DNA of 64,000 nt from Haemophilus parainfluenzae (GTDB lineage: Bacteria; Pseudomonadota; Gammaproteobacteria; Enterobacterales; Pasteurellaceae), in contig JAGZBU010000003.1 of NCBI GenBank assembly GCA_018369675.1, positions 8,234 through 72,233 on the forward strand, written 5' to 3'. Below the pieces are notes generated by a model. That model ran no database searches and was not told where the DNA came from. It worked only from the letters and a program-made list of their open reading frames with translations. Position numbers and translations under genes: made by a program. Positions 3,695 to 22,976 of this stretch are shown piece after piece. Numbering within the stretch: position 1 is the first letter of the stretch; each line of letters opens with the position of its first letter.

Positions 3695-4564
3695 TTATTT
3701 TGTTAATAAATCCAACGCCTCTTGATATTTAGCAACTGTTTTTTCAATCACTTCTTTTGGTACTTTAGGCGCTGGCGGTTGTTTATCCCAACCACTTTGC
3801 TCTAACCAATCTCGTACAAATTGCTTATCAAATGAGGGCGGATTTGTTCCTTCTTTATAAGTATCAACTGACCAAAAACGACTAGAATCTGGTGTTAATA
3901 CCTCATCCATTAAAGTGAGCGTACCATTTTCATCTAAACCAAATTCAAATTTAGTATCACAAATAATAATGCCTTTAGTCAGCGCATATTTGGCAGCCTC
4001 AGTATAAAGTGCAATCGCTTTTTCTCTGACTTGTGCCGCTAACTCTGCGCCAATTGCTTTTTCACATTCTTCATAGCTAATATTGATATCGTGATTGCCC
4101 ACTTCTTCTTTGCTTGATGGTGTGAAAATCGGCTCTGGTAATTTACTTGCCTCAACTAATCCTTCTGGTAATTTCAAACCACAAATGGTGCCCGTTTGCT
4201 TATAATCTTTTAGCCCGCTACCCGTTAAATAACCACGCACGATAGATTCAATTTTTATTGGTTTCAAACGCTTACATACCACTGCACGATCTTTCACTAA
4301 ATCAGCTTCTTCTTTTGGTAACACATCATAAACTGAATCGCTAGTAAAATGAGTCGGCATAATATGGGCTAACTTATTGAACCAAAAATTGGAAATTTGA
4401 GTCAGAATTTCCCCTTTGCGTGGAATAGGATCATCTAAAATCACATCAAATGCAGACAAACGGTCACTGGCGACCATTAACATCCGTTTATCATCGATCT
4501 CATAAAGATCACGCACTTTTCCCGAATAGATTTTTTTTAGACTAAGTTGTGTCATTGCTTGCAC
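3695..4564 (-). CDS. purC: phosphoribosylaminoimidazole-succinocarboxamide synthase (SAICAR synthetase)
   Basis: The gene encodes 289 aa and contains the characteristic [15 protein letters not shown]...[11 protein letters not shown] motif. Confidence 0.92.
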
Positions 4565-6368: not shown

Positions 6369-6408
6369 AAGTGCGGTCAAAATTTATAGTGAATTAAGTA
6401 CCGCACTT
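6369..6408. repeat. USS inverted pair acting as the prfC terminator
   Basis: The pair is AAGTGCGGTCAAAATTT...GTACCGCACTTT. Confidence 0.65.
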
Positions 6409-20380: not shown

Positions 20381-21622
20381 TTAGCCGTTTTTACGTTCTT
20401 CTTCCATACATACTGCCGCAGTAAATAATACGTCAGTTGAAGAGTTTAATGCGGTTTCTGTTGAGTCTTGTAAGATACCAATCACAAAACCTACACCGAT
20501 CATTTGTGCCGCGATGTCATCACTGATACCAAATAAGCTACAAGCTAATGGGATTAATAATAATGAACCACCTGCCACACCAGAAGCACCACATGCACAA
20601 AGCGCCGCAACAATACTTAATAATACAGCACTGACAAAAGATACTTCTATACCTAATGTATGAACAGCCGCTAACGTTAATACAGTAATAGTAATCGCTG
20701 CACCCGCCATATTGATATTCGCACCTAATGGAATTGCCACAGAATAGGTTTCTTCATCAAGATTTAAGCGTTTTGCTAATTCAATGTTTACTGGAATATT
20801 TGCCGCAGAACTACGAGTAAAGAATGCAGTTACACCACTTTCGCGTACACAAGTCCAAACTAATGGATATGGGTTACGACGGATTTTCCAATAAACGAGA
20901 ATTGGGTTTAGCACAAATGCAGTGAATAACATTGTACCGATTAACACGAATAGTAAGTGTACATATCCACCTAACGCCGCTAATCCTCTGTCAGATAAAG
21001 TTTCAGCCACTAAACCGAATACACCGAAAGGCGCAAAAGAAATAATGATATGAACAATTTTAGAAATGCCTTCTGCAAAATCAGCCACCACTTGTTTAGT
21101 TGCATCAGAAGCATGACGAAGTGCTAAACCTAAACCGATAGACCATGCTAATACACCGATAAAGTTTGCTTTAAAAATCGCATTTAATGGGTTATCTACC
21201 ACGTTCAATACTAAAGCAAGCATCACTTGGCCAACAGATTGTGGTGCCGAACTTGCATCTTCTTTTACCGCAAGTGCAACCTCTGACGGGAATGCCATAC
21301 TTGCAATTACCGCAGCAACAGCGGCTAAGAAGGTTCCCACAAGATAAAGCACTACGATTTCTTTCATATTGCTTTTAGAGCCCACTTTCTTATTAGCCAG
21401 TGCAGCCATAACAAGGAAGAAAATCAAAATTGGTGCAACTGCACGTAATGCTTTAACGAAAATTTGACCCAGCACACCAAAGCTAGATGCAAGATCAATG
21501 CCTGATGAATTTTTAACACTCTCATTCACCAATGCAACAAGGATCCCGAGTACCAAACCAACAGCAATTCGTTTTACCAAATTACCTTGGAAAAGAAAAT
21601 GAAATAAACGTGATGTATTCAT
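20381..21622 (-). CDS. sstT: serine/threonine:Na+ symporter
   Basis: It is collinear with E. coli SstT throughout. Examples are [31 protein letters not shown] and [17 protein letters not shown]. Confidence 0.9.
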
Positions 21623-21811
21623 AATAATTTTAAATAAAGATTAAGTTGAACTTCAGATCGTTACGATCCACCGAAACAGACTAAAGATAGCTTAAATTTT
21701 GTTTAAAAGAAAATTTTTTCTTTATCATTTTATTAAAAAATTGAACTTTTTAAGCCTGGAATGAATTTTTTCTAAAATTTTCGCCTATAAAAAAATTTTT
21801 TCTATGCCCTA

Positions 21812-21841
21812 TTGACATACTGTATCTAACCACAGTATATT
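21812..21841 (+). promoter_or_regulatory. sigma70 promoter (TTGACA-17-GTATAT) with an embedded LexA/SOS box TACTGTATCTAACCACAGTA
   Basis: The sequence is ttgacaTACTGTatctaaccACAGTAtatt. The pattern CTGT-N8-ACAG, flanked by TA and TA, spans 21818-21837. It lies about 55 bp upstream of the ORF at 21896. Confidence 0.6.
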
Positions 21842-21895
21842 ACACCTGTATAAACAACCAATGATTAAAAACACACTAACTAAAAGGAACACAAG

Positions 21896-22345
21896 ATGAT
21901 GAACTACGCAAATACAGTTGCACAAAATGATATGACGTTTTCTTATCATCCTATGCCATTTTTCAATGATGTTGAAAGCAAATCGACATTTAATAAAAAA
22001 TTAGATCTCAACCTTTATTGCATCAAACGTCCACAACAAACGTGTTTTATTCGTGTAACGAATCCGAATATGCTTGCTTGGGGAATTGAAATGGGCGATA
22101 TGTTAGTGGTTGAAAAAAATGACAGCCTTTTCATCGGTGATCTTGTAGTATTGGAAAAACAAGATGAATTCCATATTTATGAATTTGCCGGTGTAAGCGG
22201 TAATGAATTTGTATTCATGGCATTAGATTCCAAAGTGGAGAATATTAAAACAACACAATGGACAAGCCTACCATTGGTTGGAACAGTAACAAATACCATC
22301 CATCAAATGAAACCAAGAAGAGATTTAATGAAATTTGCGGCTTAA
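21896..22345 (+). CDS. UmuD/LexA-C-terminal-like (peptidase S24 fold) protein with substituted catalytic dyad
   Basis: The region CFIRVTNPNM-LAWGIEM-GDMLVVEKNDSLFIGDLVVLEKQDEFHIY aligns with the UmuD and LexA pattern G-x-S-M, then 7 residues, then G-D-L-L, then 26 residues, then K. Spacing is exact. Asn replaces the Ser and Tyr replaces the Lys. No Cys-Gly or Ala-Gly cleavage site was found. Confidence 0.5.
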   Translation: MMNYANTVAQNDMTFSYHPMPFFNDVESKSTFNKKLDLNLYCIKRPQQTCFIRVTNPNMLAWGIEMGDMLVVEKNDSLFIGDLVVLEKQDEFHIYEFAGVSGNEFVFMALDSKVENIKTTQWTSLPLVGTVTNTIHQMKPRRDLMKFAA

Positions 22346-22373
22346 TCCAATAAACAGATAATCTACGCAAAGA

Positions 22374-22405
22374 AAAAGTGCGGTTAATTTTAACCGCACT
22401 TTTTG
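22374..22405. repeat. USS inverted pair forming a bidirectional terminator
   Basis: The sequence is AAAAGTGCGGTTAATTTTAACCGCACTTTTT. Confidence 0.7.
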
Positions 22406-22424
22406 TTGAAATAAAAAATTGTTA

Positions 22425-22976
22425 TTACATCACTCGACGTGATTGTGTGTAAGTTCTTGCCCAGTAATCTTCATCTAATGAACTAATTGTTACACCTTGG
22501 CTTGAACTTGCATGCATAAATTGGTTGTTACCAATATAAACGCCCACATGATTGTTGCGACGGAAGAACACTAAATCACCTTTACGTAATTCATGTTTTT
22601 GGATTTGGCGACCTAAATAGCGTTGTTCTGAGGTTGAACGTGGAAGCTCCATGCCGTAAGCATCGAGAAAAGCAGTTTGCATAAATGCAGAGCAATCAAT
22701 ACCATGTTTTGAAGTGCCCCCCATTCTGTAACGAGTACCAACCCATTCGTTATAAACTTGAGCAAGCGCTTTATCACCAATTAAACCTGATTTAGGACGG
22801 TTAGTTCTTAATTTAGGGTAAACGCCCCCTTTTTTCCCATCTAAACCAGCAATCAAACCCGTTAACTCAGCATCATCACTTTCACTAATCATGCCGTTTT
22901 GTGCCTGCCCCGAGTTGTTAGAGCAGGCTGTTGTCAAAACAGCCAAACCTACAATAATCAAAATCTTCTTTAACAT
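22425..22976 (-). CDS. nlpC: NlpC/P60-family lipoprotein (cell-wall endopeptidase)
   Basis: A lipobox (VLTTAC|S) is present. The NlpC/P60 Cys-His core reads GIDCSAF...HVGVYIGNNQFMHAS. Confidence 0.8.
   Translation of the reverse strand: MLKKILIIVGLAVLTTACSNNSGQAQNGMISESDDAELTGLIAGLDGKKGGVYPKLRTNRPKSGLIGDKALAQVYNEWVGTRYRMGGTSKHGIDCSAFMQTAFLDAYGMELPRSTSEQRYLGRQIQKHELRKGDLVFFRRNNHVGVYIGNNQFMHASSSQGVTISSLDEDYWARTYTQSRRVM

What the first reader, a model, noticed from the sequence alone, without database searches (positions are those of the whole stretch)
21812..22345. LexA-box promoter driving a standalone UmuD/LexA-like S24 domain with both catalytic residues replaced
A near-consensus sigma70 promoter (TTGACA-17-GTATAT) has a canonical SOS box (TACTGT-N8-ACAGTA) in its spacer. 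It sits 55 bp upstream of a 149-aa ORF. I hand-aligned the ORF to UmuD and the LexA C-terminal domain, and the spacing is exact. The S24 signature is SM, then 7 residues, then GD, then 26 residues, then K. Here it reads N-M-LAWGIEM-G-D...-Y. The nucleophilic Ser is Asn and the general-base Lys is Tyr. No Cys-Gly or Ala-Gly self-cleavage site was found. No umuC or dinB-like partner is adjacent; the neighbours are sstT and nlpC. That implies an SOS-induced protein with a UmuD fold that cannot autocleave. It could be a non-cleavable UmuD-like regulator that manages RecA or the polymerases. It could also be a decoy of the LexA dimerisation domain. Haemophilus genomes carry an 'impA/umuD-like' annotation that may correspond to this gene, but I cannot verify that here.
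Basis: partly seen in the sequence, partly recalled or inferred. Interest (0 to 1): 0.65.

Follow-up and report, generated by a model that had tools for sequence, protein, structure and literature searches.

The report
SOS-controlled, catalytically dead UmuD homologue (impA)
This is the Haemophilus parainfluenzae copy of impA, a DNA-damage-inducible gene found in all Pasteurellaceae genera sampled; its UmuD-like protein has lost every residue needed to cut itself, so it must act by binding other proteins, and its target is still unknown.

Summary
A strong sigma-70 promoter (TTGACA 21812-17, TATATT 21836-41) contains a perfect LexA box, TACTGT-N8-ACAGTA at 21818-37. That pattern occurs once in the window against 0.01 expected. 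The promoter lies 55 bp upstream of a 149-aa ORF (21896-22345).

The ORF is a Peptidase_S24 protein (Pfam E=9e-15). Its nearest solved relative is E. coli UmuD'. Asn58 sits on the UmuD nucleophile Ser60 and Tyr95 on the general base Lys97. The Cys-Gly cleavage-site segment is deleted.

The gene is the known impA. Orthologues occur in every Pasteurellaceae genus sampled, and one in Plesiomonas. All 37 distinct clade members inspected lack the Ser, the Lys and the cleavage motif. dN/dS is 0.02-0.18. The gene is always monocistronic with no umuC beside it.

Published work already shows DNA-damage induction in P. multocida and lists impA as an SOS gene in H. influenzae.

Function is untested. My best guess is a non-cleavable "full-length UmuD state" that manages the replisome, DinB or RecA*. 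This is a real, modestly novel variant of a known family.

The parts
21812..21817 (+). -35 hexamer TTGACA
   Evidence: Promoter scan 11/12 match. TTGAC is invariant in 13 species of 5 genera and present in 81/82 loci.
21818..21837 (.). LexA (SOS) box 1, TACTGTATCTAACCACAGTA, filling the promoter spacer and overlapping the -10
   Evidence: Exact palindrome found once, 0.01 expected. CTG...CAGTA is invariant across genera.
21836..21841 (+). -10 hexamer TATATT (18-nt spacer)
   Evidence: Orthologues have TATATT, TAAAAT or TAAACT in the same register.
21846..21861 (.). LexA box 2, CTGTATAAACAACCAA. The left half is conserved and the right half is degenerate in this species.
   Evidence: CTGTA-AAA--A-C is invariant in 13 species. 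The box is perfect CTGT-N8-ACAG in Aggregatibacter and H. paracuniculus, and CCAG in Pasteurella and Avibacterium.
21884..21888 (+). Ribosome-binding site AAGGA, 7 nt before the ATG
   Evidence: Read from the sequence.
21896..22345 (+). impA coding sequence, 149 aa, a non-catalytic UmuD-like S24 domain
   Evidence: dN/dS is 0.02-0.18 over 18 pairs.
21938..21970 (+). N-terminal arm motif FSYHPMPFFND (residues 15-25), aligned on UmuD 14-TFPLFSD-20. The cleavage-site segment that follows it in UmuD is deleted.
   Evidence: P-[FL]-[FY] is kept in the clade. 0/22 clade members carry a cleavage-site motif, against 19/50 canonical proteins.
22067..22069 (+). Codon AAT = Asn58, at the position of the UmuD Ser60 nucleophile
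   Evidence: the clade has N14/D5/H2/G1; canonical proteins have S in 45/50.
22178..22180 (+). Codon TAT = Tyr95, at the position of the UmuD Lys97 general base
   Evidence: the clade has Y18/F3/I1; canonical proteins have K39/R10.
22334..22342 (+). C-terminal Phe-Ala-Ala-COOH at the end of an extension that UmuD lacks; a candidate ClpX-type degron (inferred)
   Evidence: AA-COOH is found in 18/22 clade members against 2/50 canonical UmuD-like proteins.
22370..22407 (.). Bidirectional intrinsic terminator shared with the convergent NlpC/P60 gene, built from an inverted pair of uptake signal sequences
   Evidence: RNA fold -20.6 kcal/mol, z = -5.7. USS copies at 22376-84 (+) and 22393-401 (-).

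Best explanation
This is the H. parainfluenzae orthologue of impA.

Shown here:
- It is a single-gene transcription unit.
- Its strong sigma-70 promoter is overlapped by one perfect and one half-degenerate LexA operator.
- It encodes a protein with the UmuD fold.
- The protein has lost the Ser nucleophile (now Asn), the Lys general base (now Tyr) and the Cys-Gly cleavage-site segment.
- These losses are fixed across Pasteurellaceae under strong purifying selection.

Shown in print for orthologues: the gene is switched on by DNA damage together with lexA.

Inferred:
- The protein cannot be processed to a UmuD'-like form and there is no UmuC to activate. It therefore acts purely by binding, as a permanent equivalent of uncleaved UmuD2.
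- Its conserved N-terminal arm (P-[FL]-[FY]-x-D, equivalent to UmuD F15-D20) and its remodelled former active-site cleft (N-P-N-M-L-A-W-G) serve as interaction surfaces.
- My preferred target is the replisome/translesion machinery: the beta clamp, Pol III alpha and DinB, the only Y-family polymerase reported for H. influenzae. The effect would be to slow or discipline DNA synthesis while recombinational repair proceeds.
- The conserved ...FAA-COOH tail would make the protein short-lived through ClpXP, so the effect ends when LexA re-represses.

Rough probabilities: identity, SOS control and loss of catalysis about 0.9. Binding-only manager of some DNA-damage-response partner about 0.6. Replisome/DinB as the specific target about 0.3.
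For: Fold and descent.
- Pfam Peptidase_S24 E=9e-15, 54.8 bits against a 23.3 cut-off.
- Best NCBIfam match is the Pol V autoproteolytic subunit rather than LexA, 55 against 20 bits.
- Best PDB sequence and structure matches are UmuD/UmuD'.

Loss of catalysis.
- N58 on S60 and Y95 on K97.
- The same holds in 22/22 clade members and in 15 more genera or species, including Actinobacillus, Mannheimia, Glaesserella, Gallibacterium and [H.] ducreyi.
- A 6-7 residue gap lies where UmuD has C24-G25. 0/22 clade members carry a cleavage-site motif.

Selection. dN/dS is 0.02-0.18.

Operators.. They are also present upstream of the most distant members, Plesiomonas and H. paracuniculus.

Induction. P. 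multocida impA rises 4.55-fold and lexA 9.87-fold with enrofloxacin (PMC2966327). Both rise in a phoP mutant (PMC4730259). H. influenzae impA is listed among six SOS genes (PMC6957337).

Orphan status.
- The downstream gene is convergent in every locus examined.
- A review table lists H. influenzae with lexA and dinB but without umuC (PMC2734928).

Non-catalytic roles of full-length UmuD with DinB, alpha, beta and UmuC are documented (PMC5342242; PMC3901139).

Tail. AA-COOH occurs in 18/22 clade members against 2/50 canonical proteins. That ClpX recognises LAA/VAA-type C-termini (ssrA tag, LexA N-terminal fragment) is from my own knowledge, not checked here.
Against: - No experiment on ImpA function was found in nine literature searches.
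- UmuD D91/G92, which I recall (Godoy et al. 2007) as contributing to DinB binding, are not conserved in the clade.
- The arm motif that argues for clamp or alpha binding also contributes F18 to the RecA L2 pocket (PMC9926225). It therefore does not discriminate between targets.
- dinB is not among the listed H. influenzae SOS genes, so co-regulation with the proposed partner is absent.
- The other members of that small regulon (recA, recX, recN, ruvA) all concern recombination, which favours the RecA rival.
- The AlphaFold model gives the arm low confidence (pLDDT 40-54).
- Presence of dinB and absence of umuC were not checked in H. parainfluenzae itself.
Confidence: 0.6

Rival explanations
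1. ImpA is a non-cleavable occupant of the RecA* filament groove. It would dock where LexA and UmuD dock but never leave by self-cleavage. It could then compete with LexA to give negative feedback on SOS, or temper RecA-mediated recombination, as DinI, RecX or UmuD'2C do in E. coli.
For: - The fold matches UmuD in the RecA complex 8gmt.
- Three of the four residues that form the pocket for RecA L2 F203 remain hydrophobic: position 54 I19/22, position 94 F/L/M/Y 21/22, arm F18 F/Y 21/22.
- The other H. influenzae SOS genes (recA, recX, recN, ruvA) are all recombination functions.
Against: - The fourth pocket residue, Y52, is aromatic in 49/50 canonical proteins but Cys in 17/22 clade members.
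- The acidic contact E93 is E8/Q5/K5 in the clade. Charge reversal there impairs RecA-dependent cleavage of UmuD.
- The cleavage-site region that makes van der Waals contacts with RecA (L21, Q23, F26, P29) is deleted or diverged.
- These changes look like relaxed selection on the RecA interface.
Confidence: 0.25
2. ImpA is a decoy of the LexA dimerisation domain. It would form mixed dimers with the LexA C-terminal domain and so alter repression or LexA cleavage.
For: It shares the S24 fold with LexA C-terminal domains and is made at the same time as LexA.
Against: - By sequence and structure it is closer to UmuD than to LexA: NF007621 55 bits against TIGR00498 20 bits; UmuD' E=4e-6 against LexA E=0.2.
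- Nothing in the alignments points to a LexA-type interface.
Confidence: 0.05
3. ImpA is a DNA-binding regulator, as many database names say ('LexA family transcriptional regulator', 'SOS-response transcriptional repressor'). This would be comparable to Acinetobacter UmuDAb.
For: The source annotations say so. UmuDAb shows that a UmuD homologue can become a repressor (PMC4807011 and PMC11332147, abstracts).
Against: - Only residues 30-131 match any Pfam family, and that family is S24. There is no HTH hit.
- The 35-residue arm is predicted disordered with no helix-turn-helix.
- The LexA model scores 20 bits against a 110.95 cut-off.
- UmuDAb keeps self-cleavage and needs a larger N-terminal domain (PMC4807011 title and abstract).
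Confidence: 0.03
4. ImpA is still a self-processing or trans-acting peptidase that uses other residues.
For: The former active-site loop is among the most conserved parts of the protein: N56, W62, G63 and D68 are (nearly) invariant.
Against: - The nucleophile position varies among N, D, H and G, and the base position among Y, F and I. No single chemistry is conserved.
- There is no cleavage-site motif.
- Non-catalytic members of this superfold are known: S. pyogenes SipA 4n31 and the phage 186 CI C-terminal domain, both in the fold-search list.
Confidence: 0.03
5. ImpA is a decaying remnant of a lost umuDC operon with no function.
For: No umuC lies beside it, and the catalytic residues are gone.
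Against: - dN/dS is 0.02-0.18 in 18 pairs.
- The reading frame is intact, and the promoter and operators are conserved in 81/82 loci.
- Synteny with sstT holds across five genera.
- The gene is present across the whole family.
Confidence: 0.01

Closest known systems
E. coli UmuD (DNA polymerase V accessory subunit, MEROPS family S24)
   Same: - Same fold: 1ay9 TM 0.75 normalised to the target.
- Similar size.
- LDLN and GD motifs and the arm motif P-[LF]-[FY]-x-D.
- A LexA-repressed promoter.
   Different: - No Ser/Lys dyad and no Cys-Gly site, so no UmuD' form.
- No umuC partner gene.
- Only about 22% identity. It scores 55 bits against a 110-bit family cut-off.
- Trp in the active-site loop (W62, 21/22 clade members) where UmuD-like proteins have Ala.
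- A C-terminal extension ending in FAA.
Laboratory non-cleavable UmuD variants (S60A, K97A)
   Same: They are locked in the full-length state. These variants are what was used to show UmuD2 binding to Pol III alpha and to the RecA filament (PMC5342242; PMC9926225).
   Different: Those are single substitutions that keep the cleavage-site region and the RecA contacts. ImpA is a natural, ancient version with the cleavage-site region deleted and part of the RecA interface changed.
Plasmid TP110 ImpA of the impCAB operon (source of the gene name; from my own knowledge)
   Same: A UmuD-like S24 protein under SOS control.
   Different: The plasmid ImpA is a cleavable UmuD analogue that works with the UmuC-like ImpB. 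The Pasteurellaceae protein is chromosomal, solitary and non-catalytic. The shared name overstates the relationship.
Acinetobacter UmuDAb
   Same: A UmuD homologue that has taken on a role other than activating Pol V (PMC4807011, PMC11332147).
   Different: UmuDAb is larger, binds DNA through its N-terminal domain, acts as the SOS repressor and still self-cleaves. ImpA has no DNA-binding domain and cannot cleave. Pasteurellaceae also keep a normal LexA.
Non-catalytic members of the LexA/signal-peptidase superfold (S. pyogenes SipA; phage 186 CI C-terminal domain)
   Same: They are precedents for this fold being kept as a binding or assembly module after loss of catalysis. Both appear in the fold-search list.
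   Different: They have unrelated biology (pilus assembly, repressor oligomerisation) and much weaker similarity (E of 1e-3 to 1e-1).
Type VI secretion protein ImpA/TssA
   Same: Only the name. Many database records for orthologues carry it.
   Different: There is no sequence relationship. The only Pfam hit is Peptidase_S24. This is a name collision that has entered at least one paper (PMC4730259).

Membership tests
Peptidase S24 (LexA/UmuD) structural family | Sequence match to Pfam PF00717 above the gathering score | tested here: met
   54.8 bits against a 23.3 cut-off, E=9e-15, residues 30-131.
Peptidase S24 (LexA/UmuD) structural family | UmuD/LexA C-terminal-domain beta fold | tested here: met
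   AlphaFold core pLDDT >90. Foldseek top hits are UmuD' 1ay9 and 1umu, UmuD 8gmt and LexA C-terminal domains, all at probability 1.00.
Peptidase S24 (LexA/UmuD) as an active peptidase | Ser nucleophile and Lys general base | tested here: not met
   Asn58 and Tyr95 occupy these positions. Across the clade the nucleophile position is N/D/H/G and the base position Y/F/I.
Peptidase S24 (LexA/UmuD) as an active peptidase | Ala-Gly or Cys-Gly cleavage site in the segment preceding the globular domain | tested here: not met
   A 6-7 residue gap lies where UmuD has C24-G25. 0/22 clade members carry the motif.
Peptidase S24 (LexA/UmuD) as an active peptidase | RecA*-stimulated self-cleavage | not testable with these tools
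   This needs a biochemical assay. It is predicted to be absent.
UmuD, the Pol V accessory subunit | Score above the NCBIfam NF007621 family cut-off | tested here: not met
   55.2 bits against a 110 cut-off.
UmuD, the Pol V accessory subunit | Encoded in an operon with a umuC-type Y-family polymerase | tested here: not met
   The downstream gene is convergent in all loci examined and no same-strand partner exists. H. influenzae is listed without umuC (PMC2734928). The rest of the H. parainfluenzae genome was not searched.
UmuD, the Pol V accessory subunit | RecA-filament contact residues (Y52, V/L54, F94, F18, D91, E93) | tested here: inconclusive
   Positions 54, 94 and 18 are kept as hydrophobic or aromatic. 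Y52 is Cys in 17/22 members and E93 is not conserved.
SOS (LexA) regulon | LexA operator of the gamma-proteobacterial type overlapping the promoter | tested here: met
   The perfect 20-bp box lies in the spacer, 0.01 expected. A second box lies after the -10. Both are footprinted across genera.
SOS (LexA) regulon | Induction by DNA damage / LexA binding | not testable with these tools
   Published for orthologues only: P. multocida 4.55-fold with enrofloxacin, and H. influenzae impA listed as an SOS gene.
LexA repressor | N-terminal winged-helix DNA-binding domain and a match to TIGR00498 | tested here: not met
   20.2 bits against a 110.95 cut-off, and only the C-terminal part aligns. There is no HTH Pfam hit. 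The arm is predicted disordered.
Type VI secretion ImpA/TssA | Match to the ImpA/TssA domain | tested here: not met
   A Pfam scan at E<=10 returned only Peptidase_S24.

The most novel reading that the evidence does not exclude
Pasteurellaceae have kept, inside one of the smallest SOS regulons described, a natural 'permanently uncleaved UmuD'. It works with no Pol V in the cell. If so, the polymerase/RecA-manager role of UmuD is an independent, selectable function. ImpA would be the factor that times replication restart, DinB use or SOS shut-off in these naturally competent, phase-variable pathogens. The remodelled cleft (N-P-N-M-L-A-W-G plus Tyr95) would serve as a new peptide-binding site.
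Probability: 0.3. Interest if true: 0.65.

Novelty: new variant of a known kind. Interest (0 to 1): 0.48.

Why it matters
In E. coli it is hard to separate what uncleaved UmuD2 does (checkpoint, DinB restraint, displacement of Pol III alpha from the clamp) from what UmuD' does as part of Pol V. Pasteurellaceae offer a natural separation. They have a UmuD-fold protein that cannot be cleaved, no UmuC, and a very small SOS regulon. They also include genetically tractable species such as H. influenzae, P. multocida and A. actinomycetemcomitans.

A phenotype for an impA deletion would show directly what a 'manager-only' UmuD is for. It may also bear on mutation and phase-variation rates under antibiotic stress.

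On a practical level, the family is annotated in at least five contradictory ways: ImpA, type VI secretion protein, LexA family regulator, S24 peptidase and Pol V subunit UmuD. These names should be corrected to a non-peptidase UmuD homologue.

Tried and rejected
1. Literature. Nine full-text searches found expression data for impA. They found no functional study and no statement that the catalytic residues are missing. The key paper (Sweetman, Moxon & Bayliss 2005) and Gmuender et al. 2001 are not held, so I cannot exclude that the former mentions it.

2. Terminator scan. The consensus scan reported nothing in 21400-22700. Folding shows a strong hairpin followed by a T-run at 22370-22407. The scan result was a false negative.

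3. RecA-interface test. I mapped the UmuD-RecA contacts from PMC9926225 onto the clade to choose between the RecA and replisome models. The result is mixed and does not decide.

4. Core box statistics. CTGT-N8-ACAG alone is not rarer than chance in 64 kb. The search with up to 2 mismatches is also at chance level, 2 found against 1.96 expected. Its second hit at 22269-88 lies inside the ORF and is dismissed.

5. Rejected readings. Pseudogene (dN/dS). DNA-binding regulator. Type VI ImpA. Mobile-element cargo: synteny with sstT in five genera and housekeeping neighbours ModF, SstT, NlpC/P60 and LpdA.

6. Not attempted.
   - A dimer or complex structure prediction, because the tool folds single chains only.
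Full report
**1. What is in the sequence**

The window is Haemophilus parainfluenzae. Forty loci from that species or close relatives are 96-100% identical to the ORF product.

Between the divergent sstT gene (20381-21622, minus strand; SstT equivalog, 634 bits) and the ORF lies a promoter. Its elements are TTGACA at 21812-17, an 18-nt spacer and TATATT at 21836-41. This is an 11/12 consensus match and the only strong one in the region.

The spacer is filled by TACTGTATCTAACCACAGTA (21818-37). The exact pattern TACTGT-N8-ACAGTA occurs once in 64 kb against 0.01 expected. The 8-base core alone would not be significant.

The ORF runs from 21896 to 22345 and encodes 149 aa. AAGGA lies 7 nt before the ATG. 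A hairpin at 22370-22407 (-20.6 kcal/mol, z = -5.7) followed by a T-run ends it. The hairpin is flanked by A and T runs, so it can serve both the ORF and the convergent NlpC/P60 gene.

**2. The protein**

Sequence matches:
- Pfam gives Peptidase_S24 only (E=9e-15, residues 30-131).
- The best NCBIfam model is the Pol V autoproteolytic subunit, at 55 bits and well below its 110-bit cut-off. LexA scores 20 bits.
- The best solved relatives are UmuD/UmuD' at E of about 5e-6. LexA is at E of about 0.2-1.

Structure: an AlphaFold model built on a 72-sequence alignment has a core pLDDT above 90 and a disordered N-terminal arm. Its best Foldseek matches are UmuD' (1ay9, target TM 0.75), UmuD in the RecA complex (8gmt), and then LexA C-terminal domains.

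Catalytic residues: the phmmer alignment puts Asn58 on UmuD Ser60 and Tyr95 on UmuD Lys97. MAFFT alignments agree. Where UmuD has the cleavage-site segment (…QCGFPSP…), the protein has a 6-7 residue gap.

One small error: an Ala-Gly dipeptide does exist (A98-G99), but it lies in the globular domain and is not conserved.

**3. Relatives**

The gene is what databases call impA. Named orthologues come from these genera:
- Haemophilus, including H. influenzae, H. haemolyticus, [H.] ducreyi and H. paracuniculus;
- Rodentibacter, Pasteurella, Aggregatibacter, Avibacterium, Basfia, Caviibacterium;
- Actinobacillus, Mannheimia, Glaesserella, Bibersteinia, Gallibacterium;
- Nicoletella, Otariodibacter, Phocoenobacter, Testudinibacter, Muribacter;
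- outside the family, only one Plesiomonas assembly.

In 22 clade members, the Ser position is N/D/H/G and the Lys position is Y/F/I. In 50 canonical UmuD-like proteins from the same search, Ser is present in 45 and Lys in 39 (Arg in 10). Fifteen further genera or species show the same pattern. None of the 22 has a (C/A)-G-hydrophobic-P-(S/A)-P cleavage motif, against 19 of 50 canonical proteins.

The gene is nevertheless under strong purifying selection, with dN/dS of 0.02-0.18 in 18 pairs. The most conserved parts are:
- the arm motif FSYxPMPFFxD;
- the block KKLDLNLYCIKRPQQTCFIRVTNPNMLAWGIExGDMLVVE, which contains the former active-site loop, with a clade-specific Trp62;
- GTVTNTIHQ;
- the last three residues, FAA.

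**4. Regulation**

Upstream regions from 13 species of five genera were aligned. This shows invariant TTGAC, invariant CTG…CAGTA of box 1, and a second invariant element, CTGTA-AAA--A-C, just downstream of the -10.

That second element is a perfect CTGT-N8-ACAG box in Aggregatibacter and H. paracuniculus. It is CCAG in Pasteurella and Avibacterium. In the window it is degenerate on its right half (21846-61, CTGTATAAACAACCAA). The ancestral arrangement is therefore two operators, and different lineages have let one or the other decay.

81 of 82 loci have CTG-N10-CAG within 130 bp upstream, against 0.5% of control windows. The Plesiomonas gene has TACTGTATAAACGTACAGTA ending 10 nt before its ATG.

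Published expression data on orthologues:
- P. multocida impA rises 4.55-fold and lexA 9.87-fold with enrofloxacin; impA was one of six genes taken to qPCR (PMC2966327).
- impA and lexA rise together in a P. multocida phoP mutant (PMC4730259).
- H. influenzae impA is listed with lexA, recA, recN, recX and ruvA as the SOS genes (PMC6957337 citing Sweetman et al. 2005).
- NTHi ImpA is 2.1-fold up in biofilm (PMC3417516).

**5. Context**

sstT is the divergent upstream neighbour in Haemophilus, Rodentibacter, Pasteurella, Avibacterium and most Aggregatibacter. The downstream gene differs between genera but is always on the opposite strand. impA is therefore a single-gene unit in the core chromosome, with no UmuC-like partner beside it.

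A review table lists H. influenzae with lexA and dinB but without umuC, and does not count impA as umuD (PMC2734928).

**6. How it probably works**

Shown:
- UmuD fold;
- no dyad and no cleavage site;
- a LexA-type promoter;
- family-wide conservation under selection;
- no adjacent polymerase gene.

Inferred: the protein acts only by binding, as a permanent counterpart of uncleaved UmuD2. Full-length UmuD is documented to bind DinB, Pol III alpha, beta and epsilon, RecA, Lon and ClpXP. It also displaces alpha from the clamp in a way that depends on the N-terminal arm (PMC5342242; PMC3901139).

ImpA keeps the arm motif P-[FL]-[FY]-x-D, equivalent to UmuD P16-D20. I therefore favour a replisome/DinB-manager role, at about 0.3.

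The main rival, at about 0.25, is a non-cleavable binder of the RecA* groove. UmuD F18 from the same arm motif, together with Y52, V/L54 and F94, forms the pocket for RecA loop L2 (PMC9926225). In the clade:
- positions 54, 94 and 18 stay hydrophobic or aromatic;
- Y52 is Cys in 17/22 members;
- the acidic contact E93 is not conserved.

The RecA interface therefore looks partly relaxed. The fact that the rest of the small H. influenzae SOS regulon concerns recombination favours the RecA rival.

The conserved ...FAA-COOH occurs as AA-COOH in 18/22 clade members against 2/50 canonical proteins. It resembles ClpX-recognised C-termini such as the ssrA tag LAA and the LexA N-terminal fragment VAA. 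That resemblance is from my own knowledge and was not tested. It suggests built-in instability, which would suit a transient damage-response factor.

**7. Comparison and novelty**

Structurally the protein belongs to the S24 fold family. It fails the defining tests of an active S24 peptidase and of the UmuD Pol V subunit: the dyad, the cleavage site, the family score cut-off and the umuC partner.
- It is not a LexA-type regulator, because it has no DNA-binding domain.
- It is unrelated to type VI ImpA/TssA.
- The plasmid ImpA that gave it its name is, to my knowledge, a cleavable UmuD analogue with an ImpB partner.

The gene and its SOS control are already in the literature. I could not find the following stated anywhere in the held papers:
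- the family-wide loss of all self-cleavage determinants;
- the two-operator architecture;
- the conserved tail.

No function has been assigned. I rate it a new variant of a known kind. It is of moderate interest as a natural 'manager-only' UmuD.

Noticed in passing
window 22376-22384 (+) and 22393-22401 (-); whole window: The impA/NlpC-P60 terminator hairpin is made of an inverted pair of the Haemophilus uptake signal sequence AAGTGCGGT. The 9-mer occurs 53 times in the window against 0.42 expected. Five more closely spaced inverted pairs lie at 6369/6400, 17881/17898, 36961/36995, 40542/40559 and 50470/50486. They are probably terminators too.
   Followed up: partly
orthologues: [quoted passage not shown] The type VI name has been carried into a published gene list (PMC4730259). 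None of these names reflects a non-catalytic UmuD homologue.
   Followed up: yes
proteins P0194, P0196, P0205, P0227, P0267; P0150, P0151, P0179, P0183, P0236: Other UmuD-like proteins outside the ImpA clade also lack the dyad: Ser replaced by A, L or D together with Lys replaced by R. 10 of 50 canonical-looking proteins have Arg at the Lys position, 5 of them keeping the Ser. Loss or alteration of the S24 dyad in UmuD-like proteins may have happened several times independently.
   Followed up: no
proteins P0145, P0147, P0148: These proteins of 252-285 aa match the query in two separate stretches. They may be tandem double S24 domains.
   Followed up: no
L081 3960-4438 (Plesiomonas sp. MAG, JBOFTR010000004.1): This is the only clade member named outside Pasteurellaceae. 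It has Gly at the Ser position and Tyr at the Lys position. It has a perfect SOS box, lies between serS and nth, and lacks the C-terminal AA tail. It could reflect horizontal transfer, or the clade could predate Pasteurellaceae.
   Followed up: partly
L060 about 3910-3935 (Haemophilus quentini K068): This is the only one of 82 loci without CTG-N10-CAG upstream. Box 1 reads CTGTATGAAACATACAG, with a 9-nt rather than 8-nt centre. It is either a natural operator-spacing mutant or an assembly error.
   Followed up: no
window 21787-21806: An A-run/T-run tract (ATAAAAAAATTTTTTCTA) lies just upstream of the -35. It is conserved in Haemophilus and Rodentibacter and partly in other genera. It may be an UP element, or part of the divergent sstT promoter region.
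   Followed up: no
window 22269-22288: A 2-mismatch match to the LexA palindrome (TACCATTGGTTGGAACAGTA) lies inside the impA coding region. This is at the chance level for the window, 2 found against 1.96 expected.
   Followed up: yes
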